DNA from: Oscillospiraceae bacterium
GTDB lineage: Bacteria; Bacillota; Clostridia; Monoglobales; WRAG01
Assembly (NCBI GenBank): GCA_009780345.1
Contig: WRAG01000010.1
Span: 251 to 64,250 of the forward strand
DNA: 64,000 nucleotides
Direction: 5' to 3'
Both the position numbers and the translations under genes were made by a program. The notes beneath the pieces were generated by a model, which did not search any database, had not been told where the DNA came from, and was given only the letters and a program-made list of their open reading frames with translations. Position 1 is the stretch's first letter; each line of letters begins with the position of its first letter. Below, one piece after another: positions 48,601 to 61,498 of the stretch.

Positions 48601-51600
48601 GAAGGTTACGTTGATTGGCGGGATTGGAGCCCATTGGGCGTAGTATGTTGTGTCGGTTGCGGGGATTATGCTGCTGTTTGTGATCTCTGTCCCGCCCGTC
48701 TGCGCGTCATACCAGCCCATGAACGTGTAGCCGGGTAGGGTGGGAGGTTGGATAAAGTAATCCACTAAAACCTCCATGCCAACAACCGCGCCGCGCCGTA
48801 CTTGCGTTGCAGGCGAACCGCCTTGCGAGTCGAAAGTAAGTGTAACGGTGGGCGTGATGTCCCAATGGACATAAAGGGTGATTCCGTCGGGCGCATCCCA
48901 CACAATTGACGTTGGCAGAACTTGCACACCGCTTGTATCACCGTTTGGAGTCGTCCACCAGCCGCCGAAATAGTAATAATTGCCGCTCGGAGGGGTTGGG
49001 TCCGCTGTGGCCGACATCGCTTGCATAAAAGTTCCGCCTATCGTAACAGGCTCATGGTAAGCAAGCGTTTGGTCGGGCGAAAGCGTCGTTCCCGCGCCCG
49101 GAATTATGTCAGCCGGGTTAAAATATCCCCCCTGCGCGTCAAAAGTAACGGTGATAGTGGGAACCGGCGCCCACTGCGCGTAAAGCATCGTATCCACCGA
49201 CGGAACAGAGCTTGAATCTGTAATCTGCGTTCCGCCGCTCTGCGCGTCAAACCAGCCTTGGAACACAAATCCGAGCTGCGTCGGCTCTGTAACCGAAGCA
49301 AGGATAGGCGCATAGCTGCTACCCGGCGCGTTTCCGCTCACAACCTGCGTCGCGGGATCGCCGCCGTTCGCGTCAAAGGTAATTGTAAGTGTCGGATCGA
49401 CAATCCAGTGCGCGTAAAGGGTTTGATCCGCCGTCGCCGTAACCGTCGTCGTGTCGAGAATCTGCACGGCGCCCAATGTTCCGCTCGGCTCGGTAAACCA
49501 GCCGTTAAAAATGTAGCCCGCCAACGACGGATTCGCGATTTCGTCGAAAGCCGCCGCGTATGTGCCGCCGACTGTAACCGTCGCGGTTTGCCCGTCGGGC
49601 GCGCCGCCCTGCGCGTCGAAAGTGACATTAATTGTCGGCTCAGGCGTCCACCACGCGTAAACGTAAACCGTCGTAGCATACGGAGGCACCAAGTACCCCG
49701 GGCTCACTGTGCTTCCGCCCATGCCTTGCGGTTGATCGTGCCAACCATTAAAGATATAACCCGGCAAAGTCGGCGTTGTAATTGCGTTAAGAGCAGAGGC
49801 GTAGGTTGAAAGTGGAATCTGACCGCCCACGGTCTGTGTCGCGGGGCTGCCGCCTTGCGCGTCAAATATTATCGTAACAGTAACCGAAACCCAGTGCGCG
49901 TAAAGGATTTGGTCTGTCGTTTCCGTCACGACGGTGGTCGGGAGAATCTGAACGCCGCTCGTATCTCCGTCCGGCGTTGTGAACCAGCCACTAAATGCGT
50001 AGCCCATTTTCGACGGAACTTGGACTTGGGACAGCGCGGGGCCGTAGAGAGTTCCGGTTTCCAATATTTGCTGTTGCCCGTCGGGTGTGCCGCCTTGCGC
50101 GTTGAAGGTTACGTTGATTGGCGGGATTGGAGCCCATTGGGCGTAGTATGTCGTGTCGGTTGCGGGGATTATGCTGCTGTTCGTGATCTCCGTCCCGCCC
50201 GTCTGCGCGTCATACCAGCCCATGAACGTATAGCCGGGTAGCGTGGGGGTTGCAATCGCAAGGAGAGTGGCGGCAAATGTATCGCCGATGACTCTGCTTG
50301 GCACGACTTGAATGGGTGGCGTTCCGTCGTTTGCGTCAAAGGTAATAGTAACCGTCGGTTCGGCAATCCAATGCGCGTAAAGCGTTTGGTTTGTCATTGT
50401 TGTAACGACGGTATTGTTAAGAATTTGCACGCCGCTATTATCTCCATTCGGCGTGGTAAACCAACCGCGGAAAATATAGCCGGTTTGCGTCGGTGTTACA
50501 ACTTGCGACAAAGCGTTTGCGTATGTGCCGGTTACTTGAACCGATGTTACCGCCTGCGTTGCAGGCGTGCCGCCCTGCGCGTCGAAAGTCAGCGTAATTG
50601 GCGCCGCGTATTGCGCAACGTAAGCAGTATTATCGCTGATTAGCGTTGTAAGCACTTGGGCAGAGGTCAAAACAGTAACGCCGCCGTCCGATGACCAGCC
50701 GATAAACCCGTAATTTGCGTTAGGTTGCGGAATCGGTGATATAGTCGGGACAAGCGGACTATTAGTGGTGGGAATACTCTGTTGCGTCTGCGTTCCTGCC
50801 GTAAAAGTTCCATTTGTGCCCGGATCAAAGGTAACTGTCAGAGACATAATCATAGCGCCCGAATTATAATAGTTGATGTCAGAGTTATTGAGCGGACTGT
50901 TAAAAATAGAACTGTATATCGACTGTATCTGCGTTGACGTTGCTACGTTAGGCGGCGGAATTCGCGCGCCGTTTCCTGCAACGTTGCCTGTAAATACAAC
51001 ATTCGAACCAATGATTAGATTGTTATAAACATTGTTATGCAACGGATTACTATAGTCATTTTGCGCAGAAAATATACCGCCGCCGTTGCCGCTGGCGGTG
51101 TTATTGCTGATCGTGCCGCCGCTTATCGTTATCAGTCCGGACGCGTCAGTATGGATACCGCCGCCATAGACTGTGCGGTTATTGGTGATAAGTCCACCGG
51201 TCATGGTCAGATTCGCCGCCTTCAGCTCGACGCCGCCGCCAACTGCGACAGCAGAGGTCGCCACATTGCCGGTAATCATGCCGCCGGAGATGGTGCCGTA
51301 TCCGTTTCTGATTTCCACGCCACCGCCGCTTGAAGAAGCAGTATTTCCGCTGATTATGCCACCTGTCATGGTGAAGGTGCTATTGCCTTCCAAAAGTACG
51401 CCTCCGCCGGCCCAAGAGGAGGTATTGTTTGTAATAAGACCGTCGTTCATGATAAGCGATCCCTGATTGCTTACATGCACAGCGCCCCCGTATGCAGCGT
51501 TTCCGCCTCCGGGCGCACGGCTGTTTGTGATTGTGCCGCCGCTTTCGATCGTAAGCGTCCCTCCGAGAACATCCACGCCGCCGCCGACAATAGTGCCGCC

Positions 51601-51930
51601 CGGTCCGCTCAGCGTAACATTTTGAAGAGTCAAATTTCCGGTTACACTAAAGTGCCGCTGACCGGTCGTGGCTTGTGTAAAGGTAAATGTCGAACCTGCC
51701 ACGCTTGTGAGGACGATATTTTGACCGGCGGCGATTGCAATCGCCCCGCCGGTGGCAGAGAAACTGTTTTCAAGTTCAATCGTCGTCACCGTTCCGTCTG
51801 TCGGCGCCGCGGCAATAGCTACCGCAAGGTCACTATAGCTTGTGACACTAACCGGCGCCGCGAATACTGTGGGAGCGAGAAGTCCTCCCAAAAGAGCTAC
51901 AACTAAGAATAATGATAAAAACTTTTTCAT
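45691..51930 (-). CDS. 2079-aa SLH-anchored surface protein: PMP-type parallel beta-helix repeats, ~18 Flg_new repeats and 3 SLH repeats
   Basis: RBS GGAGGG and a signal peptide. GGA[VI]/GGG[VI] with F/I-x-x-N repeats (GGAVHVSNQGSLIMNDGLITNN, GGGVLLEGNSTFTMTGGIISGN, and others). I counted eighteen units ending Y[AV][QHR]W. SLH motifs with ITRAE three times. Confidence 0.85.
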   Translation of the reverse strand: MKKFLSLFLVVALLGGLLAPTVFAAPVSVTSYSDLAVAIAAAPTDGTVTTIELENSFSATGGAIAIAAGQNIVLTSVAGSTFTFTQATTGQRHFSVTGNLTLQNVTLSGPGGTIVGGGVDVLGGTLTIESGGTITNSRAPGGGNAAYGGAVHVSNQGSLIMNDGLITNNTSSWAGGGVLLEGNSTFTMTGGIISGNTASSSGGGVEIRNGYGTISGGMITGNVATSAVAVGGGVELKAANLTMTGGLITNNRTVYGGGIHTDASGLITISGGTISNNTASGNGGGIFSAQNDYSNPLHNNVYNNLIIGSNVVFTGNVAGNGARIPPPNVATSTQIQSIYSSIFNSPLNNSDINYYNSGAMIMSLTVTFDPGTNGTFTAGTQTQQSIPTTNSPLVPTISPIPQPNANYGFIGWSSDGGVTVLTSAQVLTTLISDNTAYVAQYAAPITLTFDAQGGTPATQAVTSVQVTGTYANALSQVVTPTQTGYIFRGWFTTPNGDNSGVQILNNTVVTTMTNQTLYAHWIAEPTVTITFDANDGTPPIQVVPSRVIGDTFAATLLAIATPTLPGYTFMGWYDAQTGGTEITNSSIIPATDTTYYAQWAPIPPINVTFNAQGGTPDGQQQILETGTLYGPALSQVQVPSKMGYAFSGWFTTPDGDTSGVQILPTTVVTETTDQILYAHWVSVTVTIIFDAQGGSPATQTVGGQIPLSTYASALNAITTPTLPGYIFNGWHDQPQGMGGSTVSPGYLVPPYATTVYVYAWWTPEPTINVTFDAQGGAPDGQTATVTVGGTYAAAFDEIANPSLAGYIFNGWFTEPSGTLGAVQILDTTTVTATADQTLYAHWIVDPTLTITFDANGGDPATQVVSGNAPGSSYAPILASVTEPTQLGFVFQGWFDAQSGGTQITDSSSVPSVDTMLYAQWAPVPTITVTFDAQGGYFNPADIIPGAGTTLSPDQTLAYHEPVTIGGTFMQAMSATADPTPPSGNYYYFGGWWTTPNGDTSGVQVLPTSIVWDAPDGITLYVHWDITPTVTLTFDSQGGSPATQVRRGAVVGMEVLVDYFIQPPTLPGYTFMGWYDAQTGGTEITNSSIIPATDTTYYAQWAPIPPINVTFNAQGGTPDGQQQILETGTLYGPALSQVQVPSKMGYAFSGWFTTPDGDTSGVQILPTTVVTATTDQILYAHWVSVTVTIIFDAQGGSPATQTVGGQIPLSTYASALNAITTPTLAGYIFNGWHDQPQGMGGSTVSPGYLVPPYATTVYVYAWWTPEPTINVTFDAQGGAPDGQTATVTVGGTYAAAFGEIANPSLAGYVFNGWFTGPSGTLGAVQILDTTTVTATADQTLYARWIADPTVTITFDANGGDPTTQVVSGNAPNNSYAPILASVSEPTQTDFVFQGWFDAQTGGTQITDSSSVPSADTTLYAQWAPVPTITVTFDAQGGTPATQTVTPVQVTGTYASALSQVATPTQFGYIFAGWFTTPNGDTSGVQILDTTIVTATADQTLYAHWIADPTVTITFDANGGTPAIQVVSGKIIGGTYAVTLASVTEPTQEFYTFLGWFDAPTGGVKIADADIIPATNTTLYAQWAPLQINIIFDSLGATPAMQEEPAISGNTYEAPFAAVTTPIMADSDFVGWFTQIIGGTQVQPADIVTATADQTLYAQWAPLPTVTITFDGNGGTPTPLVVSGNVVGSSYASILASVTEPTQTGFVFQGWFDAQTGGTQITDLSNVPSIDTTLYAQWAPELPPPPPTITVTFDANGGAPATQTASVTVGGTYQSAFNVITTPTRAGHTFLGWFTNANGGTRVLASSLVTQTSDHTLYAHWTANQNPGFNDPVFRPPIFIDSGNREPEIQDPGFRQDVTLTEIHYSYLIGEGNNHIAPNDVITRAEVASILLRIVSDETRAAYWTLENPFSDVPNNGEAWFSNAISTANHKGIMTGFPDGTFRPNLPITRAEVVTVMTRFLHDEAQYRGTTDMFPYISDSWARNNINLAAQIGWIQGDQYGNFNPDANITRAEFATIVNRVLSRTATDIDTANMKTWIDNANTSAWFYWAMQIASNSSPQAPARNWAMLQLPNARAEDVII
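47624..50247 (-). repeat. Two ~1.12-kb near-identical direct repeats at a 1503-nt offset inside the 2079-aa gene
   Basis: The protein block TLPGYTFMGWYDAQTGGTEITNSS ... YAQWAPVPTITVTFDAQGG (~385 aa) occurs twice with few substitutions. Antisense shadow ORF pairs share peptides at a 1503-nt offset: 47755..48306 with 49258..49809, and 48391..48738 with 49855..50241. Confidence 0.85.
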
Positions 51931-52069
51931 ATTAAACCCTCCTTTTAAATCTCCTTTGTGTTAAAAATATAACCCAAAAATTTCAAGTCAAGGGGACAAA
52001 ACAGCGTTTTATTCTAAAAAATCAATATACAATGCTGCGCGATAAGGTATTAGGGTTTGCCGAATGGCA

Positions 52070-53653
52070 TTAAAAATCGATTTGAAATGTTTGAGAACAA
52101 TGATTATTTGGTTTGAATAAAGCAAAACGGCTTGAAACAGAATGTTTCAAGCCGAAATTTGGTGCGCCGATTAAGGAAGCAGACGAACCGCCAAGCCCAC
52201 TATCAACAGGGCATTTCTCAATCCCTGCATTAACCTCGTCAAGCGTTATAGTACGCTCACCATCTTTACAATTCAATACTAAAACAATTTTATTATCATA
52301 AATATACACCGAATTAACGAAAATGTCAACAAGTTTTTGCTTTTCTTCCCAATCTTCAATGTTCACTTCTCGCCAACGGCAAACCCAAAACCTTATATCT
52401 TCCTTTGATAGCAAGGGTTTCTTGATTTGTTCCTGCAAAATAGCAACTTCAAGCTGATTTTTGCGTTCCTCTAATTCGTCAAGCCGTTTCTTAGTAAATT
52501 CGTTGTAAATACCGTCTTGTATAGCATTTAGGATATTGGTTGCTGACCTTTCAACCTCTGCAAGTTGCTTTTGAAGTAACGGCAATTCGGGATTTTCTCG
52601 TCCTTGCAATGCGAAAAGTGCGTCAACTATGCGATTGATAAGCGGTTCGTCATTCAGCATTTCCATAACGTGAAAAATAACTAAATCCTCAATCCACGCT
52701 TTTTTGGCGGTCTTTTTATCACATTTTCGTTTTCGTGCGTGATAACACTTGTAGTAGCGATATATATTATTCCGTCCAGTTCCACTCTCGCCCGTCATCA
52801 TTGCTCCGCATTTTCCGCAAAATAATTTCATTGTCAATAAATACTGCTCGTCCAACGCTTTCAAGCGTGACGGTGCTTTCTTATTCTTCCTCATATTATC
52901 TTGAACTTTGTCGAATATTTCTTGTGAAATTATCGGCTCAAAAGCGTTTTCAATAGTTATATCCTTGAACGAATATTCGCCCAAATATCGGCGATTTTTC
53001 AACATATATGTAACACGGTTGATATTCATTTCCCCGCCCTTGACATTCCGTATTCCTCTGCTATTTAAGCTGTTTACAATGGTTTTAATCGTCTTTCCGT
53101 TTGCGTAATCGGTGAAAACCTCACGAACGACAGGAGCGGTCACGGGGTCGATTTCAAAATATTGCTCGTCATTTATCTTGTAACCAAACGGAATCGAACC
53201 GCCGTTAAACTTACATTTTAGAGCGTTTTCGGTCATTCCTCGATTTACTTTAACCGCAAGTTCAGCGGAATAATATTCAGCGAAACCCTCTAATACGCTT
53301 TCCATCAGCATACCCTCGGGGGTGTCGGACAGTCGCTCGGTTGCAGACACGACACGGACATTGTTTTTCGCCAAAAGATGCTTGTAATGCGCGCTGTCAT
53401 AGCGATTTCTCGCAAATCTGTCTAACTTCCAGACCAGAACGACATCAAATAATTCTTTTCCGCTATCTTTTATCATTCGCTGAAATTCGGGTCGGTTATC
53501 GGTCTTGGCTGATAAAGCCCTGTCTATGTAAGTGTTAAGTATTGTTATACCTTGTTTTTCGGCGTATTCCTTACATTCTCGGAGTTGCCCCTCAACGCTA
53601 TTTTCGGTTTGATTATCAGAAGAATAGCGGGCATAGATGACGGCATTTTTCAT
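52070..53653 (-). CDS. Large serine recombinase
   Basis: Resolvase catalytic domain VIYARYSSDNQ..VLVWKLDRFARN. Recombinase domain. Zinc ribbon CGKCG..YYKCYHARKRKCDKK. Coiled coil. The last ~45 codons run through a terminator-like hairpin, so the true C-terminus is uncertain. Confidence 0.85.
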   Translation of the reverse strand: MKNAVIYARYSSDNQTENSVEGQLRECKEYAEKQGITILNTYIDRALSAKTDNRPEFQRMIKDSGKELFDVVLVWKLDRFARNRYDSAHYKHLLAKNNVRVVSATERLSDTPEGMLMESVLEGFAEYYSAELAVKVNRGMTENALKCKFNGGSIPFGYKINDEQYFEIDPVTAPVVREVFTDYANGKTIKTIVNSLNSRGIRNVKGGEMNINRVTYMLKNRRYLGEYSFKDITIENAFEPIISQEIFDKVQDNMRKNKKAPSRLKALDEQYLLTMKLFCGKCGAMMTGESGTGRNNIYRYYKCYHARKRKCDKKTAKKAWIEDLVIFHVMEMLNDEPLINRIVDALFALQGRENPELPLLQKQLAEVERSATNILNAIQDGIYNEFTKKRLDELEERKNQLEVAILQEQIKKPLLSKEDIRFWVCRWREVNIEDWEEKQKLVDIFVNSVYIYDNKIVLVLNCKDGERTITLDEVNAGIEKCPVDSGLGGSSASLIGAPNFGLKHSVSSRFALFKPNNHCSQTFQIDF

Positions 53654-54024
53654 TCGCCCTCACCGCCTGTACTTAACCTTAAAATCGCCTCTTGAAGTTT
53701 AGCGTTGAGTGCGGAATTTGGTTCAAAACAAGCCTTGACGAACTGCGCCCATTCTTCTTTGTTTTCCATTTTGCTCCGCAGAATATCCGGCTCATAATTG
53801 TATAGCTTGCCTTGCGGTTTCTCGCAACGCCCGAAAATCCAATCAAGCGAAACATCAAAATGGTCGGCATACCAACGGAGTAATTTGTTTGTTGCCTCGC
53901 CCTTTCCGTTTTCAATTTTGGCAACTGTTGATTGATTTGTTACGCCCGATAATTCGGCTAATTCTTTTTGCGAATATCCCGCCGAAATTCTTAATGTTCT
54001 TAAATTTTCTGCCATTTTATACAT
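53650..54024 (-). CDS. XRE-family HTH regulator, translationally coupled to the recombinase gene
   Basis: HTH GYSQKELAELSGVTNQSTVAKIENG. 4-nt overlap with the recombinase start. Confidence 0.8.
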   Translation of the reverse strand: MYKMAENLRTLRISAGYSQKELAELSGVTNQSTVAKIENGKGEATNKLLRWYADHFDVSLDWIFGRCEKPQGKLYNYEPDILRSKMENKEEWAQFVKACFEPNSALNAKLQEAILRLSTGGEGE

Positions 54025-54116
54025 AGTAAAACCTCATTTCATTGTGTTTTGAATACATTGTATTATATAAACGAATTGTTGTCAAGTTTTATTTTGAATT
54101 TATTTTATGGATTTTT

Positions 54117-54191
54117 GTAATACTTAAAATGTCCCCAACTTTGAAACATAAAAAAACATTCCCAATGTTGGGAATGTTTTGGAGTATTACT
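54117..54191 (+). repeat. ~76-bp structured repeat, copy L1
   Basis: Outer inverted repeat tgtaatac / gtattac. Inner perfect palindrome aaaacattcccaa-tg-ttgggaatgtttt. It aligns with 57921..57997 in direct orientation. Confidence 0.8.
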
Positions 54192-54248
54192 GATTGTCAA
54201 GCGGATTGAAAGTAGAGGGTGAACATCTTTTAACAATAAAATTTAGAT

Positions 54249-54767
54249 TTACAATCCCCATATAATTCCTATCTTTTTCATACTAACATATTTCTTCCGG
54301 CTAACGATTATATGGTCGTGCAGTTTTACATCAATGGTCTTTAAAGCATTCGCAACTTTGGTCGTAACATCAATATCGTTAATAGATGGTTCTAATTCAC
54401 CGCTTGGGTGATTATGAGCCAAAACAACGGAATGCGCATTGCTTGAAATCACAGTTTCCATAATAAGCCTAATGGGAGCAGGTGCTGAATTTGGGTCGCC
54501 ACGAGAAATTTGGTCATAGCTAATAAGGCGTTTGCTTGATGAAAGACTAATAAGATACAATTCTTCTGCCATCTTGCTATAAAACAAAGTTATCGCATAT
54601 TTGCCAACTTTCTCTGTCGTGTCTAAAATCGGAGTATCCCCCATCATCATTCTGTCGTAAATTCCTGAAATTGTCGGAAGTTGCTCTATAAAATATTCCA
54701 ACTGTTCTTGTTGTAGTCTTTTATGAAATTCAATCAACTTTTCAAGTTCATTAGTCATTCCATTCAT
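54249..54767 (-). CDS. radC: RadC-like JAB/MPN-domain protein
   Basis: JAMM motif LAHNHPSGELEPSINDIDVT. Confidence 0.8.
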   Translation of the reverse strand: MNGMTNELEKLIEFHKRLQQEQLEYFIEQLPTISGIYDRMMMGDTPILDTTEKVGKYAITLFYSKMAEELYLISLSSSKRLISYDQISRGDPNSAPAPIRLIMETVISSNAHSVVLAHNHPSGELEPSINDIDVTTKVANALKTIDVKLHDHIIVSRKKYVSMKKIGIIWGL

Positions 54768-54769
54768 TC

Positions 54770-56038
54770 TTACGCCGCCTTATCAATATCAACATTTGTT
54801 CGTACCGATTTTCGTCTTAACTTTGAGAATATCTTAACAGGGAAATCATTTGCGTTATCTGAAACCTTAAAGGTTAATGTTCCGTCGTTCTCCATAAATT
54901 TCAACGATAATTTTCGGTCAAATATGTACTTCACCTGTGAACTGTCTAATTTATATATGGAATTTTTCAATGAATCCAACATTGCCGACTTGAACAAATT
55001 GTCAACTTTATCCAATAAATTCTTATCGACCAAACCATCGCATACAAACAAAATATTCTTATCTGCACAAGTTTGAATGATGTCGAATAATTCGGCGACA
55101 AACTCCATATTTCCGCTTGCTACGTGACGGAGCATTTCGCAACCGTTCAAGAGGATGTCACCTTTAATCAAATTATCAATTTCAGAAATAGAACTGAAAT
55201 CTGTTTTAAGAGTAGCAAGGCTTTTGCGGTCATATTGATTAGAAAGAACCGCAAAATTCTCAATGATTTCCTCGAAATTATTAGCATAACTATTATAAAT
55301 TTCGGCAGTTTTTGTGTTGCCATTTTGCGCCCAATCGCTTAAAAATATTTTTTTGTAATTTTCCAAACTCCAAATCGCTGTCTTGATTTCGTTGTCATAC
55401 GCAAGTCGTGAGTAATATTTTTTAAGTTGATATATTATCGCAAAACCAAATAAAGGAACGACAACACCTAATAAAGCAATCAGCAGCAAATCATTCACAA
55501 TCGTTGTACGGAATAATGTGGTCGTAGTTAAAACAACAACGCCAATTGGCAAAAGAATTTTCAAAGATTTTCTGTCGTTATCCCGAACATTCTTTAAACC
55601 GTCTTGTTGTTTGATAAGATGATAAATGCCAAAATGAATAGGGGTACTGATTAAATCATCGAAAATATATGGTATTGTTAAATTCCAAATAACATTGTCT
55701 ATAATCCCTATTATTACTTGTGAGACAATCCAAACTGAAACGCTGATTGTGTATGCCATAGCCAAAGCTAAAATTTTCGGTTTTTCTTTATGCATTACCC
55801 GTAAAGTCACCCATAGCAATGTCAAACCCAATAAAGAACGCACAGGTTCAATGAAATTGAACATTGATGTTGCAATAAAATAGAGGGCAAAAACAAGTGT
55901 TGCAACAGTAACCTTTATTATTTCGCCCTTGTTATTAAATGTTTTCTTCCCTTGTATTATTCTGTAATGCAAATTGCAAAATATAGCCAAAACCAAGTTA
56001 ATAGAAATGATTGTAAGCATTTCCATAAGTTCCCTCAC
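54770..56038 (-). CDS. Polytopic membrane protein (6-7 TM) with a ~190-aa cytoplasmic domain of unknown function
   Basis: TM-rich N-terminal half. The C-terminal half has a faint layout resemblance to AgrC-type GHKL kinases (..LFKSAMLDSLKNSI.., LKFMENDGTLTFKVSDNANDFP) but lacks the H-box and G-boxes. It ends 2 nt before radC starts. Confidence 0.55.
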   Translation of the reverse strand: MRELMEMLTIISINLVLAIFCNLHYRIIQGKKTFNNKGEIIKVTVATLVFALYFIATSMFNFIEPVRSLLGLTLLWVTLRVMHKEKPKILALAMAYTISVSVWIVSQVIIGIIDNVIWNLTIPYIFDDLISTPIHFGIYHLIKQQDGLKNVRDNDRKSLKILLPIGVVVLTTTTLFRTTIVNDLLLIALLGVVVPLFGFAIIYQLKKYYSRLAYDNEIKTAIWSLENYKKIFLSDWAQNGNTKTAEIYNSYANNFEEIIENFAVLSNQYDRKSLATLKTDFSSISEIDNLIKGDILLNGCEMLRHVASGNMEFVAELFDIIQTCADKNILFVCDGLVDKNLLDKVDNLFKSAMLDSLKNSIYKLDSSQVKYIFDRKLSLKFMENDGTLTFKVSDNANDFPVKIFSKLRRKSVRTNVDIDKAA

Positions 56039-56146
56039 CTCAAGGACAGTCTAACATATTTTGACGAAATTTGCAAGATTTATTTTAGAAATTGCTACGA
56101 CAAAAACACCCTAATTTTTTAGAGTGTTTTTGTATAAACGAAATAA

Positions 56147-56320
56147 TTATCTTCGTCTTATGCCGTCACCAAACCTCTGTGCAAACCTATCTAATCTTTC
56201 CCTTGCCGTTGGTCTTTGTCTGTTACTCGTTGACATCGGCGTTGCTTGCGCCGACTTGATTTCTTTTGCAAGCAACGCTTCCCTTTGTGCTGATGTCATT
56301 ACTATTGGTTTTATTGACAT
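56147..56320 (-). CDS. Small basic protein (57 aa), unknown function
   Basis: RBS GAGGAGG about 8 nt upstream of ATG 56320. Sequence MSIKPIVMTSAQREALLAKEIKS..RERLDRFAQRFGDGIRRR. Confidence 0.45.
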   Translation of the reverse strand: MSIKPIVMTSAQREALLAKEIKSAQATPMSTSNRQRPTARERLDRFAQRFGDGIRRR

Positions 56321-56361
56321 TTCTTTCACCTCCTCTGCCTGTCAATTGCCGTTACCAAAGT

Positions 56362-56760
56362 TTACAGTCTTCTCAAGAACGCTTCTACTCCACGAACATC
56401 TCTCCTAATGCTGGCGTTCATCCCGTCCCTAAGTCGAGGAAATCTATCCCAAAACTCAGATGAAGCTCCAATTTGCGCCATTGTTGTAGCTTGGTGTGGA
56501 TTTATTGGAATTGGTGTAGGTCGCGCAAAATTACCACCCAACATCGCTCTTGTTATTGGTCCGACTATTCCGTCAACGACAAGACCGTTGTTAAGTTGAA
56601 AATGTCGCACAGCGTAATCGGTGTTTGCTCCAAAAAATCCGTCCGCTTGAAGTCCTAAACCGTTCAATCCCAAATAACCGCCGTGTTTTAAGAATAATTG
56701 GATTGTCCGAATACACGATATGTCTCTCGGTTTGTTGTTATTGGTAAACATACTATACAT
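56362..56760 (-). CDS. Peptidoglycan-binding-domain (PG_binding_1-like) protein without a signal peptide
   Basis: RBS GGAGGTG. IQLFLKHGGYLGL..ADGFFGANTDYAVRHFQLNNGLVVDGIVGPITRAML. Confidence 0.65.
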   Translation of the reverse strand: MYSMFTNNNKPRDISCIRTIQLFLKHGGYLGLNGLGLQADGFFGANTDYAVRHFQLNNGLVVDGIVGPITRAMLGGNFARPTPIPINPHQATTMAQIGASSEFWDRFPRLRDGMNASIRRDVRGVEAFLRRL

Positions 56761-56955
56761 CTATTTCACCTCCTCTCTTTTTGTGACTTATATTAAACCG
56801 CGCGTGGTTTACAAGATTTTATTGACAACTTCATATCATTTGTGATACAATGTTAGTCAAGATATATTATACAGTATAATTTTGCAACTGTCAACACTTT
56901 TGTGCAATAAAAATATTTATGTTGCGTTATTAGTCGGAAAGGAGTGGTTAATATT

Positions 56956-57405
56956 ATGTCAAAAGCCTGTTTTTTCGGTCACAGGAATATAAATAGCACT
57001 ATAACTCCTATTTTACGCGCTGAAATTGAAAATCACATTGTTGAAAAAGGTGTGAATACATTTTATGTGGGCGTTGACGGTAAATTTGACACCATTGTCG
57101 CCGCCGTTTTACGAGAATTGCAGAAAAAATATTCTTATATAAGCATATATCGTATATTGGCATATCTTCCGACTGATAAAGACGAATACCGTGATGGACA
57201 GTACGAAAAGACGATATATCCCGAAGGGCTTGAGCTTGTGCCACAACGATTTGCGATTAAGTTTAGAAACCGTTGGATTGTAGAGCAAACCGATTTTGTG
57301 ATAGCTTATGTTCAGTTGGATTACGGCGGCGCGTATGAAGCCGTGAAATACGCAGAACGAAAGAAAAAAAGCATTATAAATATAGCACGGATAGGAAAGG
57401 ACTGA
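56956..57405 (+). CDS. SLOG-family (DUF1273/YoqJ-like) protein
   Basis: CFFGHRN near the N-terminus. YVGVDGKFD. RNRWIVEQTDFVIAYV. GGAYEAVKYAERKKKSIINI. RBS AAAGGAG 11 nt upstream of ATG 56956. Confidence 0.7.
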   Translation: MSKACFFGHRNINSTITPILRAEIENHIVEKGVNTFYVGVDGKFDTIVAAVLRELQKKYSYISIYRILAYLPTDKDEYRDGQYEKTIYPEGLELVPQRFAIKFRNRWIVEQTDFVIAYVQLDYGGAYEAVKYAERKKKSIINIARIGKD

Positions 57406-57412
57406 TTTAATA

Positions 57413-57847
57413 ATGTTAGAGTTTAAAGAAAGATTACAGTTATTGAGGGCGTTAAATAAAGTTTCGCAAGAAGATTTTGCAAAGGCGTTAAATATTTCGC
57501 GCGGTGCTGTAAGCGGTTATGAAACAGGAATCCGAACACCGGATATTGATGTTTTACAAAATACCGCTGAATTTTTCGGCGTTTCTGCTGACTATTTATT
57601 AGGGATTTCCGATGTAAAGAATACCGACACCGATTTACAAGCAATCTGTAAAGCGTTGAATTTGAGCGAAAGAGCCGTTGAGAATTTGCGAAATACGAAA
57701 GGTAAAACAACAGATTTATTGTTAAATTCGGATGAATGGAATGTTTTTATTGACAGCATTTCGGAAGTTTTGAAAAGCAAAAAAGATGTTGAATATAAAA
57801 AATTCCTCGCAACCCAATGCTTGTTGAAAATGTTAAACGAAATTTAA
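57413..57847 (+). CDS. XRE-family HTH regulator
   Basis: HTH VSQEDFAKALNISRGAVSGYETG and FFGVSADYLLG. Confidence 0.8.
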   Translation: MLEFKERLQLLRALNKVSQEDFAKALNISRGAVSGYETGIRTPDIDVLQNTAEFFGVSADYLLGISDVKNTDTDLQAICKALNLSERAVENLRNTKGKTTDLLLNSDEWNVFIDSISEVLKSKKDVEYKKFLATQCLLKMLNEI

Positions 57848-57920
57848 TAAATCCCATTTGACAAAAAAATTCATTTATGCTACAATTTCCGCAAGGGAAT
57901 TGTAGCATTTTCAATTAGAA

Positions 57921-57997
57921 TGTAATACGATAATGTTCCCAACTTGGGAACATTAAAAAACATTCCCAACATTGGGAATGTTTTTGAGGGTATTACA
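57921..57997 (+). repeat. ~76-bp structured repeat, copy L2
   Basis: Outer tgtaatac / gtattaca. Inner hairpins atgttccc-aactt-gggaacat and aaaacattcccaa-ca-ttgggaatgtttt. Confidence 0.8.
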
Positions 57998-58122
57998 TAC
58001 CATAATATATTTTGCAAGATTTATCTTGCAAAATTTCGGTGTTGCGAAAGCAAACCGAATTGACGGCGGAAGCCGTCAGGCGTTGTCCACAGACAACGCA
58101 ATCCCCCTCGGAGAGCCCACAA

Positions 58123-58200
58123 CACTTTACAAATTCAGCCGCTCCAAGCGGTGAATTTGAAAGTGTTATAGTGGGTTACATACTTTCAGCAGAAAGTACG
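58123..58200 (+). other. Candidate oriT for the MobV relaxase
   Basis: Imperfect 18-bp inverted repeat cactttacaaattcagccgc-tccaa-gcggtgaatttgaaagtg, followed by TTATAGTGGGTTACATACTTTC. That tail resembles my recollection of the pMV158-type nick region (..TATAGTGTG/TTATACTTT..). Confidence 0.45.
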
Positions 58201-58270
58201 GTGTTGCTCCGAAGTTTGGTTGAGGGGTTTTAAGTTTGGGTTTAGAAATGAGGTATTTGCTTTGGCGAAT

Positions 58271-59455
58271 ATGACAGTTGTTCGCAACAATCCGCACAGC
58301 CGGAATAGTGTTGGTGCGGTCGAACGGCATAACGAACGAAAAAACGAAACATATTCAAATGTTGATGTTGTTGTGGAGCAATCGCATAACAATATTTATT
58401 TTAAGAAATGCGAAAATACATACCTACAAATTTTTGATAAAATGATTGCTGATAATGTTATCAGTACGCGCGGATTGAAACCTGACGCACACATTATGGG
58501 TGAAATGATTTTTGATGTGAATACCCGATATTTTGAGGAAAACGGCGGTTATGAGTTCGCAAGGAAATTTTATGAAGACGCGTACAAATTTGCCGTTGAT
58601 TTGGTTGGTGATGAAAGATATATAATCTCGTCTGTAATGCACGCTGACGAGCGAAACAAGGCACTTACGGACGAACTCGAAAAAGATGTATTTCATTATC
58701 ATTTACATATCGTTTATGTGCCTGTCGTGGAAAAGGAAATCCGTTGGAGCAAACGCTGTAAAACCCCCGAATTGATTGGAACAGTTAAGGAAGTTATAAA
58801 CCAAGTATCACATTCAAAAAAATGGCAGTCTACCCTTGAAAATGGGGTTATGACGAAATCATATTCCAAACTTCAAGACGATTTTTGGGAACATATGCGA
58901 AGTGCCGGGTACGAGGTCGAGCGCGGCGAAAAGGGTTCTACCAAAGAACATTTAACAGTTATCGAATACAAAACCGAGCAAGAAACACAACGGCTTGCGG
59001 AAGTTACGCAACAAGTTATGCAGCAGATGTTTATGCAACAAAAACTTGACGAGGAAATTGTTCTCAAAGAGAGTGTTATCAAGCAAAAGGAGCAATTAGA
59101 CAAACTTGGCAAGAAAACGCTTATCGGAAACGAAATCAAGCTGACAGCGAAAGAGTTTGAGGAAGTTAAAAACCTTGCTTTGATTGGGATTGACAGTCAA
59201 ATTGAGATTAAGGAACTTAAAAGCGAAATTAAAATGGTCAAGTCAAATTACAACGCTTTACAAAAAGCATACGATATTTTACAGTTGAAATATGACGATT
59301 TGAAGTTAGAATTTGCAAGATTGAAAAGGAAAGTTCAACCCTATATTGACGCTTTGAAACATTCGCCTGAAAAGGTTAGGGCGGTTATTCAAGAGGTATT
59401 GAATTTGATAAAACAAGATAAACAAAAAAAGAAAAATCGTTACAAACAAAAATAA
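58271..59455 (+). CDS. MobV-family (Mob/Pre) relaxase
   Basis: N-terminal VERHNERKNETYSN. HxDE..HxH motif VMHADERN..FHYHLHIVYVP. Long C-terminal coiled coil. The ORF-track start at 58220 is probably an extension. Confidence 0.85.
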   Translation: MTVVRNNPHSRNSVGAVERHNERKNETYSNVDVVVEQSHNNIYFKKCENTYLQIFDKMIADNVISTRGLKPDAHIMGEMIFDVNTRYFEENGGYEFARKFYEDAYKFAVDLVGDERYIISSVMHADERNKALTDELEKDVFHYHLHIVYVPVVEKEIRWSKRCKTPELIGTVKEVINQVSHSKKWQSTLENGVMTKSYSKLQDDFWEHMRSAGYEVERGEKGSTKEHLTVIEYKTEQETQRLAEVTQQVMQQMFMQQKLDEEIVLKESVIKQKEQLDKLGKKTLIGNEIKLTAKEFEEVKNLALIGIDSQIEIKELKSEIKMVKSNYNALQKAYDILQLKYDDLKLEFARLKRKVQPYIDALKHSPEKVRAVIQEVLNLIKQDKQKKKNRYKQK

Positions 59456-59675
59456 TAAAAAATTTTTGCACAAAAAATTTGACGCCTTTTATTTGTATAA
59501 GTTATAATTATATTACCATTCAATGGTAGAAACAAATGAAAGGGGGGCAGTAGCTCCAAGTCCGTTATCGCCTCAATACGGATATGGCTTTGGAAGATGG
59601 CGTTGAAATGTTCGCCCACATTGTCGAAAATAAAAAACGGATGTATTGACCTCGATAATTGTTTAGGAGTGCGAT

Positions 59676-59831
59676 ATGCGAACGGACAAATTGAAAAATA
59701 ACTCTATTCCGCAATTTGAGATTGATAGTTTAGCGAAGTTGCTTTTACCGAAAATGCAAGCGTATTTTGAAAGTGAACAGGGCAAGCGAGAGTTTGAGGA
59801 ATGGAAAGAGAAACAGGAACATAAGCAGTAA
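59676..59831 (+). CDS. Small hypothetical protein (51 aa), below the ORF-track length cutoff
   Basis: RBS AGGAG 6 nt upstream of ATG 59676. Sequence MRTDKLKNNSIPQFEIDSLAKLLLPKMQAYFESEQGKREFEEWKEKQEHKQ. A hairpin terminator follows. Confidence 0.45.
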   Translation: MRTDKLKNNSIPQFEIDSLAKLLLPKMQAYFESEQGKREFEEWKEKQEHKQ

Positions 59832-59836
59832 AGGTT

Positions 59837-59871
59837 GGGGCTGTAAGCCGTATTTTGGCTTACAGCCCCTT
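59837..59871 (+). terminator. Hairpin terminator
   Basis: ggggctgtaagcc-gtatttt-ggcttacagcccc. Confidence 0.65.
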
Positions 59872-59897
59872 AACCATCCGGCAACAAAATCTCTACG

Positions 59898-59978
59898 GTG
59901 TGTCAAGGGCGGCGCGGTTTTTGCGCCGTGTATTTTACCCTTGACACGACGAGAGGGATTTTGTTAGGTTTTATGATT
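59898..59978 (+). repeat. ~80-bp repeat A with conserved inverted arms GTGTCAAGGG / CCCTTGACAC
   Basis: Aligns with 61409..61493. The arms and the 3' flank (..gattttgttaggttttat..) are conserved, while the loop differs. Confidence 0.75.
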
Positions 59979-59986
59979 TGAAAGAT

Positions 59987-61357
59987 TTAGCTAATTTTCA
60001 AAAGATTTTCACATATTATTTTAATAAGATAATCTTCTAATAACTCAATTTGAAAATTGTCGTATAATATGTCAGTAATTTTAATAATTTCATCTATACA
60101 CATTATTATGTTTATCTTGAATTTTCTATTTATGTGTGTATGTATCATCTGTTGCATTTGCTTGTAATCTTTATTTTTTACAAATTTTTTAATTAAATCT
60201 TGCAAATGCACAGGAAATTTAATTTTCTTTTTTATATCATTCTTTTTTTTGTTTGCTTTGTCACTTTCAATTTGCTCTAACCATTCTAAAAATTCCGTTT
60301 TGCATACATAACATTTTTTGTTCGTTTTTGTTACTTTTGGAAAGTTGCTAGAGTGGAAAAGTTTATATGCTTCACCTTTTGAAATTCCTATATATTCCAT
60401 AACTTCCTCAACACCCAATGTATCATTCAAACTGTATAAATTAAAATCTTTCGTATAATTAAATATGCCTGTATATATTTTATAACAAAAATCAATAGAG
60501 TCCATTTTATTATCAAATTCTAATTTTGAGTGTAGTTTTGAGTTGTAAGAATTTTCCATATTTGCTTGCGATGCTTTAACATAATATTTTTGTGCTTCAA
60601 AATAAATGTGGAACTCAAAATCACCAGCAGAACATTTATAGCAATCTTTATTGTCGTTATGTTGAAACATATTGAAAAATTCTTGCTTTTTTTGTTTTTC
60701 AATTTGCTCTAACTCTAATTTTATGCGTTCTTTTTGGTTTTTAAAATATATAGTTTGTCTTTTTACTTTATCTTTTTTACGACATTTATCACTACAAAAT
60801 TTAACAGAACGACTTGCCATAAAAGTATTTTCACAAACAACGCATTTTTTCTCAATAAATTCAGGTTTTATATTTTGTTTTTTTTGAATATTTCTACATT
60901 CAGCACTACAAAATTTTCTTATATGTCCAATTACGGCAAATTCCACTTCGCAAATTGGGCATACTGCATATTTTGTAACGTGTTTTTTTCTGTGTATTTC
61001 TGCCATTAATTGTTTGTGTGCATTTTCACTACACTCTGTATTGCAATAAACACGGGCGTGATGATTAGAAGTGAATTCTATTCCGCAAAATTTGCATTTT
61101 TTCTCGACAAGCTTGGATTTTAATTTCTGTTGTTTTTGAACATTTCTGCATTCAGCACTACAAACTTTGGCGTTATATGGAATTAATGCAAATTCTATTC
61201 CGCAAACTAGACATATTGCGTACCTTATATCGTGTTTCCTTTTACGGCTTTCTTCATTTATTTGGTTACTTCCAATTTTTTTGCATTCTGCGCTACAATA
61301 TACACGACTACGATTAGCCGTAAATTCAGTTCCACAAATTTTACATAGTTTAATCAA
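59987..61357 (-). CDS. Multi-zinc-ribbon protein with a C-terminal excisionase-type HTH; very AT-rich gene
   Basis: Five copies of C-x2-C-x(11-13)-C-x3-C (CKICGTEF..YCSAEC, CLVCGIEF..VCSAEC, CKFCGIEF..YCNTEC, CPICEVEF..FCSAEC, CVVCENTF..FCSDKC). HTH-like LGVEEVMEYIGISKGEAYKLFHSSNFP. Confidence 0.7.
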   Translation of the reverse strand: MIKLCKICGTEFTANRSRVYCSAECKKIGSNQINEESRKRKHDIRYAICLVCGIEFALIPYNAKVCSAECRNVQKQQKLKSKLVEKKCKFCGIEFTSNHHARVYCNTECSENAHKQLMAEIHRKKHVTKYAVCPICEVEFAVIGHIRKFCSAECRNIQKKQNIKPEFIEKKCVVCENTFMASRSVKFCSDKCRKKDKVKRQTIYFKNQKERIKLELEQIEKQKKQEFFNMFQHNDNKDCYKCSAGDFEFHIYFEAQKYYVKASQANMENSYNSKLHSKLEFDNKMDSIDFCYKIYTGIFNYTKDFNLYSLNDTLGVEEVMEYIGISKGEAYKLFHSSNFPKVTKTNKKCYVCKTEFLEWLEQIESDKANKKKNDIKKKIKFPVHLQDLIKKFVKNKDYKQMQQMIHTHINRKFKINIIMCIDEIIKITDILYDNFQIELLEDYLIKIICENLLKIS

Positions 61358-61408
61358 GCAAATCCCTCTTTTGATTTTAAGTTAAATAAACTATATCATA
61401 TACACTAC

Positions 61409-61493: not shown

Positions 61494-61498
61494 GACAT

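What the first reader, a model, noticed from the sequence alone, without database searches (positions are those of the whole stretch)
54117..57997. Cargo module bracketed by ~76-bp structured direct repeats: RadC-JAB, a kinase-like membrane protein, a PG-binding protein and SLOG + XRE
Seen: two repeat copies (54117..54191 and 57921..57997) are about 88% identical by eye and lie in the same orientation. Each is a compound hairpin with outer arms TGTAATAC/GTATTAC(A). The inner perfect palindrome is AAAACATTCCCAA-nn-TTGGGAATGTTTT.

Together they flank a 3.7-kb block containing:
- a RadC-like JAB protein (HNHPSG..PS..D);
- a tightly coupled 6-7 TM protein whose cytoplasmic domain faintly recalls an AgrC-type kinase but lacks the His and ATP-lid motifs;
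- a 57-aa basic protein;
- a cytoplasmic PG_binding_1-like protein;
- divergently, a SLOG/DUF1273 protein and an XRE regulator.

Established: JAB/RadC and SLOG domains recur in phage-defence and other conflict systems on mobile elements.

Inference: this is a self-contained accessory cassette, possibly a defence or exclusion system. It may have been acquired by recombination at the repeated hairpin sites. Alternatively the repeats are simply duplicated bidirectional terminators.
Basis: partly seen in the sequence, partly recalled or inferred. Interest (0 to 1): 0.55.

Follow-up and report, generated by a model that had tools for sequence, protein, structure and literature searches.

The report
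Twin terminator hairpins bracketing mobile-element cargo
Two copies of a 76-bp double hairpin sit at the two edges of the variable cargo region of a small mobilizable island in an uncultured gut Oscillospiraceae bacterium. They most likely act as transcription stop signals that shield the island's excision and transfer genes from its accessory genes, so this is an ordinary arrangement rather than a new defence system.

Summary
**Observation: confirmed.**
- The two copies lie at 54116-54191 and 57920-57998. They are direct repeats, 88% identical over a 57-nt core.
- Each has 8-9 bp outer arms and a perfect 12-13 bp inner palindrome. There are no other copies in the 64 kb window.

**Context.**
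- The repeats lie in a roughly 9.6 kb low-GC integrative mobilizable element, made up of a large serine recombinase, an XRE regulator, cargo, oriT, a MobV relaxase and a Zn-ribbon/HTH protein.
- The repeats sit at the backbone/cargo junctions. Related elements keep the backbone but carry other cargo (glyoxalase, GNAT) and lack the repeat.
- Those relatives have an unrelated hairpin at the position of copy 2.

**Structure of the repeats.**
- Read outward from the cassette, both copies give the same RNA hairpin (-15 and -16.5 kcal/mol).
- That hairpin is followed by U7 in copy 1 and U5 in copy 2.
- Best reading: duplicated intrinsic terminators that insulate the cargo (confidence about 0.55).

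**The genes.**
- The calls for RadC-JAB, PG_binding_1, XRE and YpsA-type SLOG hold up.
- The membrane protein is a degenerate, truncated AgrC-like kinase.

**Why it is not a defence system.**
- PADLOC gives no defence hit.
- The five genes do not co-occur elsewhere. Only XRE2, the membrane protein and a RadC remnant recur, in one decayed locus.
- No evidence supports recombination at the hairpins.

Low interest.

The parts
54116..54191 (.). Repeat copy 1. It has outer arms TGTAATAC/GTATTAC, a decayed hairpin A (54128-54150) and a perfect hairpin B (54152-54180, centre TG). It lies 58 nt downstream of the radC stop and 31 bp upstream of the -35 of the xre1/recombinase promoter.
   Evidence: The scan calls a terminator on the minus strand at 54180-54153 followed by a T-run. 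The outward RNA hairpin is -15.1 kcal/mol followed by U7.
57920..57998 (.). Repeat copy 2. It has outer arms ATGTAATAC/GTATTACAT, a perfect hairpin A (57931-57955) and a perfect hairpin B (57956-57985, centre CA). It lies downstream of xre2 and of a strong promoter, immediately left of the conserved oriT-mob backbone.
   Evidence: The fold is -38.2 kcal/mol, z -7.7. Hairpin B is -16.5 kcal/mol followed by U5. Backbone conservation resumes at about 58003.
54249..54767 (-). Short RadC-like JAB protein (172 aa). The JAMM motif HNHPSGELEPSIND is intact and there is no N-terminal HhH domain. Its start lies 3 nt after the stop of the membrane protein gene.
   Evidence: Pfam PF04002 8.8e-35. NCBIfam RadC models match below their cut-offs. 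PHROG 10276.
54770..56026 (-). 418-aa membrane protein with 6-7 TM helices, a helical stalk and a truncated GHKL-like domain. It is a degenerate AgrC-like 'pseudokinase': no H-box His, and it ends before the G2 box.
   Evidence: There is no Pfam hit. The family is rare: 17 representatives among 1.84 billion. Motifs appear in alignment A1. Relatives hit HATPase_c and HATPase_c_5. The model has pLDDT 73, and its best PDB match is the AgrC kinase module, weakly (E 0.14).
56104..56137 (-). Internal intrinsic terminator of the same A-tract/stem/U-tract design. It lies between the 57-aa gene and the membrane protein gene.
   Evidence: -17.4 kcal/mol, z -6.7.
56147..56320 (-). 57-aa basic protein of unknown function, with a strong RBS (GGAGGTG).
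   Evidence: It is called as a gene in other assemblies. No family hit.
56362..56760 (-). 132-aa protein with one PG_binding_1 domain, no catalytic domain and no evident signal peptide.
   Evidence: Pfam PF01471 6.4e-13. It matches only the wall-binding part of SleB and of endolysins.
56822..56894 (.). Overlapping divergent promoters. TTGACA-18-TACAAT on the plus strand drives SLOG-xre2. TTGACA-17-TATAAT on the minus strand drives the PG-binding...radC genes.
   Evidence: Scores of 11/12 and 12/12. The block is 81% conserved in L058, next to the XRE2 ortholog.
56956..57405 (+). 149-aa YpsA-type SLOG protein.
   Evidence: Pfam PF06908 6.4e-4, below the gathering score. There are 124 homologs, many with PF06908. 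The AF2 model has pLDDT 91.7 and its best PDB match is YpsA 2nx2, followed by ShosA and DprA.
57413..57847 (+). XRE2, a 144-aa HTH_3 regulator. A 62%-identical ortholog is paired with the membrane protein gene in L058.
57858..57908 (+). Strong promoter (TTGACA-17-TG-TACAAT) whose -10 lies inside a 14-bp hairpin. It reads into repeat copy 2. The promoter is conserved in relative L045.
52070..54024 (-). Backbone of the mobile element: a large serine recombinase (52070-53653) and XRE1 (53650-54024). Their promoter is at 54085-54057.
   Evidence: Pfam Resolvase, Recombinase and Zn_ribbon_recom. Promoter 11/12. The XRE1 ortholog in L046 is 69% identical.
58120..58185 (+). Probable oriT: an inverted repeat plus AAGTGTTATAGTGGG/TTACATAC. 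By analogy with pMV158, the nick is predicted at about 58175/58176 on the plus strand.
   Evidence: Nearly invariant in L043-L046. The pMV158 MobM site is AAGtaTAGTGTG and its nick is TGTG/TTATAC on the coding strand (PMC5863519).
58262..59455 (+). MobV (Mob_Pre) relaxase.
   Evidence: Pfam PF01076 1.2e-31. NCBIfam MobV 2.2e-13, below its cut-off.

Best explanation
**What the repeats are.** The two 76-bp units are duplicated compound intrinsic (Rho-independent) terminators. They stand at the two edges of the variable cargo region of an integrative mobilizable element (IME).

**What the cargo does.** The cargo is transcribed outward from a pair of overlapping divergent promoters at 56822-56894:
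- Leftward: the PG-binding gene, the 57-aa gene, the pseudokinase gene and radC.
- Rightward: the SLOG gene and xre2.

**How the terminators work.**
- Each outward transcript ends in the same 12-13 bp hairpin B followed by a U-run.
- This stops read-through into the xre1-recombinase operon on the left and into oriT-mob on the right.
- Cargo expression is thereby kept apart from the control of excision and transfer.
- Copy 2 also stops (or attenuates) transcripts from the strong promoter at 57858-57886.

**What the cargo is.** It is a mosaic of accessory genes typical of conjugative elements, not a conserved five-gene system.

**Shown versus inferred.**
- Shown: the sequences, folds and positions, the variable-region boundaries, and the lack of co-occurrence.
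- Inferred: that termination really occurs, and that it serves as insulation.
For: 1. **Terminator anatomy.** Read outward, hairpin B is -15.1 kcal/mol followed by U7 in copy 1 and -16.5 kcal/mol followed by U5 in copy 2. No shuffle of 200 folds as well. The consensus scan calls copy 1 a terminator on the minus strand.
2. **Same design inside the cassette.** A third hairpin of the same A-tract/stem/U-tract design sits at 56104-56137.
3. **Position.** Copy 1 is 58 nt past the radC stop and just upstream of the xre1 promoter. Copy 2 follows xre2 and precedes oriT-mob.
4. **Identical outward hairpin.** The TG/CA flip of the hairpin centre makes the outward-transcribed hairpin identical in both copies, 29 of 29 nt (I1).
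5. **Positional analogues in relatives.** L043-L046 carry a different hairpin followed by ATAATTTTGC at exactly the place of copy 2, for example TCGTCCGCT..AGCGGACGA in L045 and CGTTCGCC..GGCGAACG in L044. The position is conserved while the sequence is not, as expected of a terminator.
6. **Location at the junctions.** The repeats lie at the backbone/cargo junctions. Backbone homology ends at about 53984 and resumes at about 58003-58100.
7. **Chance analogue.** A chance match in a Bacillota MAG (L028) is a plain gene-end terminator with nearly the same stem.
8. **No defence hits, no conserved gene set**.
Against: - There is no transcript data, so termination is only predicted.
- A three-way junction with conserved outer arms is more elaborate than a terminator needs.
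- Both copies face the same way although the operons they would terminate run in opposite directions.
- Independent terminators would not be 88% identical, so a duplication or transfer event must be added to the explanation, and its mechanism is unknown.
- Copy 2 lies downstream of a strong promoter that is conserved in L045. It would cut off that transcript after about 100 nt, which needs its own explanation (attenuator, small RNA, or mob using a promoter inside oriT as in pMV158).
- xre2 already has a hairpin plus a short U-run at 57877-57908.
Confidence: 0.55

Rival explanations
1. The hairpins are recombination sites, like attC or a resolution site. The cassette would have entered, or can leave, by site-specific recombination between them, perhaps through the element's serine recombinase or the Mob/Pre relaxase.
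For: - The direct repeats sit exactly at the cargo edges.
- The 12+2+12 palindrome with a non-palindromic centre has the format of serine-recombinase crossover sites (general knowledge).
- Mob/Pre enzymes recombine oriT-like RS_A sites (general knowledge).
- The cargo position is a swap hotspot in this element family.
Against: - Relatives with other cargo have no such repeat at either junction.
- All five assemblies of this element show the same arrangement, with no empty or inverted form.
- No tyrosine integrase or hairpin-specific (Y1/HUH) transposase was seen among the ORFs of the element scanned with Pfam.
- Similarity of the repeats to oriT is not significant. For copy 2, 29 of 1000 shuffles and 16 of 183 other windows score as well. 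Copy 1 shows none.
- The ends of the element do not resemble the repeat.
Confidence: 0.1
2. The unit is a small non-autonomous mobile or dispersed palindromic element (of the MITE, REP or Correia type) that landed twice in intergenic DNA of the island. Any terminator activity would be a by-product.
For: - The 8-9 bp terminal inverted arms enclose a structured core, about 76 bp in all.
- Copy 2 looks like an insertion or replacement between a promoter and oriT, both of which are conserved in L045.
- The two copies are 88% alike, which implies recent common origin.
Against: - Only two copies exist in 64 kb, both inside the island.
- No related copies were found among 185,579 species-representative genomes or in IMG/VR, apart from chance palindromes.
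- No target-site duplication is seen at the flanks.
Confidence: 0.1
3. The palindromes are binding sites for a dimeric DNA-binding protein (XRE1, XRE2 or the Zn-ribbon/HTH_17 protein). They would act as operators or roadblocks controlling the recombinase and mob genes.
For: - There are two adjacent palindromes with the half-site TTCCCAA, spaced 1-2 nt.
- Two XRE regulators are encoded next to the copies.
- A similar palindrome recurs in Streptomyces and in an actinophage-like contig, where an operator role is plausible.
Against: - The half-site occurs at no promoter of the element (54057-54085, 56822-56894, 57858-57886). Outside the repeats it is seen only at 52346 and 58885.
- The copies lie about 70-80 bp from the nearest -35 or downstream of the start site, not over a promoter.
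- Perfect 12-13 bp stems flanked by A- and U-runs are typical of terminators.
- The XRE2 ortholog in L058 and the XRE1 orthologs in L044 and L046 occur without the palindrome.
Confidence: 0.08
4. The hairpins work on single-stranded DNA after transfer, as priming sites (sso-like) for complementary-strand synthesis of the mobilized element.
For: - Both copies have the same orientation on the strand predicted to be transferred, regardless of gene direction.
- Copy 2 lies just upstream of oriT, where all relatives also have hairpin-rich DNA.
- pMV158 carries two sso elements around mobM (general knowledge, not tested here).
Against: - The units are much shorter than known sso elements, and I saw none of their conserved motifs (judged from memory only).
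- The hairpins are not conserved in relatives.
- Copy 1 folds poorly as a plus strand (z -3.0).
Confidence: 0.05

Closest known systems
Tn4451/Tn4453-type mobilizable transposons and other Firmicute IMEs with a serine recombinase and a MobV relaxase (review PMC5704250)
   Same: - Small size, about 10 kb.
- One large serine recombinase.
- A Mob_Pre/MobV relaxase with oriT just upstream.
- A variable cargo block between the integration and mobilization modules.
   Different: - The gene order and regulators differ: XRE1 is coupled to the recombinase, and a Zn-ribbon/HTH_17 protein is present.
- The cargo is not antibiotic resistance.
- The element abuts a tRNA-Leu gene.
- Its ends and its excision have not been shown.
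Bidirectional intrinsic terminators, and phage 'morons' (added transcription units that bring their own promoter and terminator)
   Same: - A stem flanked by an A-run and a U-run, usable from both directions.
- The cargo has its own promoters and terminators and a lower GC content (33-37%) than its surroundings.
   Different: - Here the two terminators are copies of one another.
- Each is embedded in a three-way junction with a second hairpin and closing arms.
Integron attC sites and gene cassettes
   Same: Structured, imperfectly repeated hairpin sites bracket exchangeable genes.
   Different: - There is no IntI-type tyrosine integrase.
- There are no R''/R' core sites.
- The block holds six genes with their own promoters instead of one promoterless gene.
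- Relatives lack the sites.
AgrC / HPK10 peptide-sensing histidine kinases
   Same: - The membrane protein has a 6-7 TM sensor, a helical stalk and the first half of a GHKL domain.
- Distant family members keep the H, N, G1 and G2 boxes.
- AgrC is the best, though weak, structural match.
   Different: - The window protein has no phospho-acceptor His, no G2 box or ATP lid, and no partner response regulator.
- It is translationally coupled to a RadC-JAB gene.
B. subtilis YpsA (SLOG, PDB 2nx2), DprA and ShosA
   Same: The fold matches (TM-score 0.70 to YpsA), and the family shares conserved Gly-rich motifs.
   Different: - Sequence identity is only 12%.
- This clade lives on conjugative and mobilizable elements next to relaxases, usually with a divergent small XRE gene.

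Membership tests
Intrinsic (Rho-independent) terminator | A stable stem-loop followed immediately by a U-run on the transcribed strand | tested here: met
   Hairpin B read outward is -15.1 kcal/mol followed by U7 in copy 1 and -16.5 kcal/mol followed by U5 in copy 2. The scan calls a terminator at 54180-54153 on the minus strand.
Intrinsic (Rho-independent) terminator | Location at the 3' end of a transcription unit | tested here: met
   Copy 1 is 58 nt after the radC stop. Copy 2 is 73 nt after the xre2 stop.
Intrinsic (Rho-independent) terminator | Transcript 3' ends map to the U-run | not testable with these tools
   No RNA data are available for this uncultured organism.
Known anti-phage defence systems (PADLOC-DB 2.0) | Component proteins match defence-system models | tested here: not met
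   Only generic HTH models hit the two XRE proteins. RadC, the TM protein, the 57-aa protein, the PG-binding protein and SLOG give no hit.
Conserved multi-gene system (any) | The genes co-occur in other genomes | tested here: not met
   SLOG neighbourhoods lack the other genes. TM-family neighbourhoods lack RadC. Only XRE2, the TM gene and a RadC remnant recur, in L058.
Integron cassette / attC | An adjacent IntI tyrosine integrase and R''/R' core sites in the hairpins | tested here: not met
   The only recombinase in the element is a serine recombinase. No GTTRRRY or RYYYAAC cores are seen in the arms.
MITE / REP-like dispersed repeat | Many dispersed copies; terminal inverted repeats; target-site duplication | tested here: inconclusive
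   Terminal inverted arms are present. Only two copies exist in 64 kb, none in the public genome or viral scans, and there is no target-site duplication. The rest of the genome was not available.
Secondary oriT / RS_A site of the MobV relaxase | Sequence similarity to the element's own nick region | tested here: not met
   The local alignment score is matched by 29 of 1000 shuffles and 16 of 183 other windows for copy 2, and by 412 of 1000 shuffles for copy 1.
Integrative mobilizable element (serine recombinase + MobV) | A recombinase, a relaxase and an oriT, with no mating-pore genes | tested here: met
   Pfam finds Resolvase, Recombinase and Zn_ribbon_recom, and Mob_Pre. An oriT-like block is conserved in five elements and resembles the pMV158 nick region. 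No T4SS genes lie in 52-61.6 kb.
Integrative mobilizable element (serine recombinase + MobV) | Defined att ends; excision and mobilization | tested here: inconclusive
   There is a low-GC island next to tRNA-Leu. The junction regions share only 8-mers. Excision cannot be tested here.
Histidine kinase, AgrC/HPK10 type (membrane protein) | A phospho-acceptor His (H box) and N, G1 and G2 boxes of the GHKL ATPase | tested here: not met
   Relatives have NHKY, NLLSNAxKEL, DNAHxFP and GNSTNGTGxGY. The window protein has no His at that position and stops at ..VRTN, before G2. It has no Pfam hit. Relatives hit HATPase_c and HATPase_c_5.
YpsA/DUF1273 SLOG | A match to PF06908 and a SLOG Rossmann-like fold | tested here: met
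   The protein itself scores below the gathering score (20.2 against 27.7 bits). Homologs at about 50% identity carry PF06908, and the model's best PDB match is YpsA 2nx2 (E 2.7e-6, TM-score 0.70).
RadC-like JAB | A PF04002 match and the JAMM motif HxH-x7-S-xx-D | tested here: met
   8.8e-35. HNHPSGELEPSIND is read directly from the sequence. The N-terminal HhH domain of full-length RadC is absent, so NCBIfam scores fall below the cut-offs.

The most novel reading that the evidence does not exclude
The core of the cassette may be an uncharacterized membrane-anchored conflict or signalling module of mobilizable elements. That core is XRE2, plus an AgrC-like pseudokinase translationally coupled to a RadC-JAB enzyme. 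The pseudokinase would sense an envelope or peptide cue and hand control to the JAB enzyme, for example to exclude or abort competing elements. In this reading the twin three-way-junction hairpins are module borders that let the unit move between elements.
Probability: 0.08. Interest if true: 0.55.

Novelty: new member of a known kind. Interest (0 to 1): 0.2.

Why it matters
The finding mainly serves as a clean example of how a small mobilizable island in gut Clostridia is organized. A conserved excision module and a conserved transfer module flank a swap-prone cargo slot, which here is fenced on both sides by copies of one terminator.

It removes a candidate 'defence cassette' from the list.

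It also flags two minor leads:
- A rare family of AgrC-like membrane kinases on mobile elements, of which this copy is a dead version coupled to RadC.
- A clade of YpsA-type SLOG proteins that habitually sit beside relaxases.

Tried and rejected
1. **Pseudo-oriT / RS_A site.** I noticed that GAGGGTATTACATAC after copy 2 resembles the nick region GTGGGTTACATAC. The alignment is not better than shuffles or other windows, so I rejected this.
2. **Leading-region 'establishment' genes with ssDNA promoters.** By analogy with pMV158, the transferred strand is the mob coding strand. Mob would then enter first and the cassette last, so this is not favoured.
3. **Invertible segment.** Hairpin B forms a perfect 29-nt inverted pair. 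However, all five assemblies have the same orientation, and both sites are intergenic.
4. **Trans-antisense pairing** between an RNA from the 57858 promoter and the radC 3' end. The transcribed overlap is only the self-complementary hairpin B, so I dropped it.
5. **Known RNA families.** Rfam gives only sub-threshold hits, E about 0.8-0.95.
6. **Repeat family in public data.** The 34 genome hits and 1 viral hit are unrelated chance or Streptomyces palindromes.
7. **Plasmid and phage DNA searches.** Only the tRNA matched.
8. **Viral-contig protein scans** for SLOG, RadC and the PG-binding protein found nothing. The membrane protein has no plasmid homolog, and plasmid RadC homologs are at most 34% identical.
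9. **Covariance model of the repeat.** I abandoned it because MAFFT mis-aligned the right arm. nhmmer on my hand alignment gave no output, and that alignment and its printed identity were faulty. I relied on blastn-short instead.
10. **Micro-variation.** The other assemblies are 99.94-99.97% identical and show no changes in the repeats, so no covariation test is possible.

Full report
**Observation**

The region was read directly.
- The repeat finder reports one strong two-copy direct repeat, 54128-54184 and 57932-57988, 57 nt at 88% identity. It also reports a 29-nt, 100% complementary inverted pair, 54152-54180 and 57957-57985.
- With the outer arms, the units span 54116-54191 and 57920-57998.
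- The palindrome AACATTCCCAA-NN-TTGGGAATGTT occurs only at these two sites in the 64 kb window, against none in 100 shuffles.
- Sensitive blastn-short found no diverged copy in the window or in any fetched locus.
- Copy 2 folds as a three-way junction: closing arms, hairpin A and hairpin B. On both strands it reaches -38 to -39 kcal/mol, z about -7.5.
- Copy 1 is weaker, because its hairpin A has decayed to -4.1 kcal/mol, no better than shuffles.
- The centre of hairpin B is TG in copy 1 and CA in copy 2, which is an exact flip.
- The observation, the coordinates and the listed genes are therefore confirmed.

**Context**

- The window is a contig of an uncultured Oscillospiraceae MAG.
- GC content falls from about 45% to 31-41% between 52 and 62 kb.
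- In that stretch lie:
  - A large serine recombinase (52070-53653) coupled to an XRE gene (XRE1).
  - The cassette.
  - A MobV/Mob_Pre relaxase (58262-59455).
  - A 51-aa ORF.
  - A 456-aa protein with Zn-ribbon repeats and an HTH_17 domain.
  - A tRNA-Leu gene.
- No mating-pore genes are present. This is an integrative mobilizable element of the general Tn4451 kind (PMC5704250).
- A block at 58120-58185 is nearly invariant in five related elements. Its sequence, AAGTGTTATAGTGGG/TTACATAC, resembles the pMV158 MobM binding and nick site on the mob coding strand (PMC5863519). This is the probable oriT.

**Relatives**

- The same element, 99.94-99.97% identical and in the same chromosomal place, occurs in four other assemblies. 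The repeats are unchanged and there is no alternative arrangement.
- A metagenome scan with the relaxase found five more distant elements, 62-88% identical.
- L046 keeps recombinase fragments, a 69%-identical XRE1, oriT and mob. Between them it carries two glyoxalase/VOC genes, two GNAT genes and one unknown gene.
- L044 carries two other genes in that slot.
- Nucleotide homology with these relatives ends at about 53984 and resumes at about 58003-58100. The slot between the XRE1 promoter and oriT is therefore a cargo hotspot, and the two repeats sit just inside its edges.
- None of the relatives has the repeat.
- At the exact position of copy 2 they carry unrelated hairpins followed by ATAATTTTGC.
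- L045 also shares the strong promoter that lies just left of copy 2.

**What the repeats most likely are**

- Cargo transcription starts at two overlapping, near-consensus divergent promoters at 56822-56894 and runs outward.
- Read outward, both copies present the identical hairpin B. It is followed by U7 in copy 1 and U5 in copy 2, at -15.1 and -16.5 kcal/mol.
- The scan independently calls copy 1 a minus-strand terminator.
- A third terminator of the same design lies inside the cassette at 56104-56137.
- Left of copy 1 is the promoter of the xre1-recombinase operon, which runs in the same direction as radC. Right of copy 2 are oriT and mob, which run in the same direction as xre2.
- Terminators at these two points would prevent cargo transcription from running into the excision and transfer modules.
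- The hairpins at the same spot in relatives are conserved in position but differ in sequence. This fits that role.
- I therefore read the repeats as duplicated insulating terminators, with confidence of about 0.55.
- Several points remain unexplained:
  - The extra hairpin and the closing arms.
  - The shared orientation of the two copies.
  - How the duplication arose.
  - Why copy 2 follows a strong promoter. It may attenuate a mob leader or end a roughly 100-nt RNA, and mob may use a promoter inside oriT as pMV158 does.

**Rival readings**

- *Recombination sites.* Relatives with other cargo lack the repeat. No empty, circular or inverted form was seen. No suitable recombinase is present apart from the serine recombinase, whose likely att regions do not resemble the repeat. 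Similarity to oriT is not significant.
- *Dispersed mobile palindrome.* Only two copies were found and there is no target-site duplication. Public genome and viral scans returned only chance or Streptomyces palindromes. The rest of the genome could not be searched.
- *Operators.* The half-site is absent from all promoters of the element, and orthologs of both XRE proteins occur without it.
- *ssDNA priming sites.* This is compatible with the shared orientation on the strand predicted to be transferred, but nothing else supports it.

**The genes**

- *RadC.* It is a short JAB-only protein with an intact JAMM motif. RadC-type JAB domains are typical of conjugative elements and are thought to process nucleic acids (PMC5512222).
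- *The membrane protein.*
  - It had no relative but itself in the word-indexed search.
  - The exhaustive search found 17 representatives.
  - Their alignment shows H, N, G1 and G2 kinase boxes in distant members. The window protein lacks the His and ends before G2.
  - Relatives hit GHKL Pfam models.
  - The AF2 model (pLDDT 73) shows 6-7 TM helices, a stalk and a partial alpha/beta domain. Its best, weak, PDB match is the AgrC kinase module.
- *The SLOG protein.* It is confirmed by 124 homologs and by a confident model (pLDDT 91.7). Its best PDB matches are YpsA, then ShosA and DprA.
- *The PG_binding_1 protein.* It has only the wall-binding domain.
- PADLOC recognizes no defence component.

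**Co-occurrence**

- SLOG homologs lie in conjugative or mobilizable elements beside relaxases, coupling proteins or agr-like loci. A small XRE gene usually lies divergently upstream. RadC, the membrane protein and the PG-binding protein are never present.
- Membrane-protein relatives lie next to a SpoU methylase, a MobA/MobL relaxase or a MazE-like gene, not RadC.
- One locus, L058, shows a related core. It holds:
  - A 62%-identical XRE2.
  - The conserved divergent promoter block.
  - A fragmented membrane-protein gene (78% nt identity).
  - A stump of the radC start.
- L058 has no SLOG, PG-binding or 57-aa gene, and no hairpins.
- The five genes are thus a mosaic. At most XRE2, the pseudokinase and RadC form a unit.

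**Verdict**

- The 'cargo' reading is right.
- The 'defence system' and 'recombination at hairpins' readings are not supported.
- This is a new member of known kinds: an IME with a cargo slot, and intrinsic terminators. Interest is low.

Noticed in passing
window 59987-61357 (-): A 456-aa protein made of about six tandem CxxC...C zinc-ribbon modules followed by an HTH_17 (excisionase-like) domain. It matches PHROG 1271 'HNH endonuclease' at 7.5e-26. It could be an unusual directionality or accessory factor of the element.
   Followed up: partly
window 58120-58185 (+); L043-L046: A probable MobV oriT: an inverted repeat plus AAGTGTTATAGTGGG/TTACATAC. It is nearly invariant across five related elements and resembles the pMV158 nick region.
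   Followed up: partly
window 57858-57908 (+); L045 885-935: A near-consensus promoter with an extended -10, whose -10 lies inside a 14-bp hairpin (-20 kcal/mol). The promoter, and a hairpin over it, are conserved in L045. Together with copy 2 as terminator, it would give a roughly 100-nt RNA.
   Followed up: partly
window 56822-56894; L058 1797-1844: Two overlapping divergent promoters (11/12 and 12/12 matches) whose start sites nearly coincide. This is a switch-like layout, and it is conserved next to the XRE2 ortholog in L058.
   Followed up: partly
window 51940-61590; tRNA-Leu(TAG) 61586-61669 (-): A low-GC island of about 9.6 kb ends next to a tRNA-Leu gene, which is unusual for a serine-recombinase element. 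The exact ends were not found, as the junctions share only 8-mers. L047 shares 63 bp just inside the right end.
   Followed up: partly
L055 6173-9052; L056 3235-6114: In other elements, SLOG homologs sit beside a relaxase and a complete agr-like quorum-sensing locus: a LytTR regulator, a HATPase_c_5 kinase, AgrB and a 49-aa peptide gene.
   Followed up: no
L001, L003-L006, L010, L011, L020, L021, L024, L026, L048: The palindrome (G)CATTCCCAA-NN-TTGGGAATG(C) recurs in many Streptomyces genomes, twice in L001. It also occurs in a high-GC phage-like contig, which holds one exact copy and a second near-copy 146 bp away. It is probably a real actinobacterial operator and is unrelated to this element.
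   Followed up: no
window 45691-51930 (-): A 2079-aa surface protein (Flg_new and SLH domains) with 52-57% GC, well above the window mean, lies directly left of the island.
   Followed up: no
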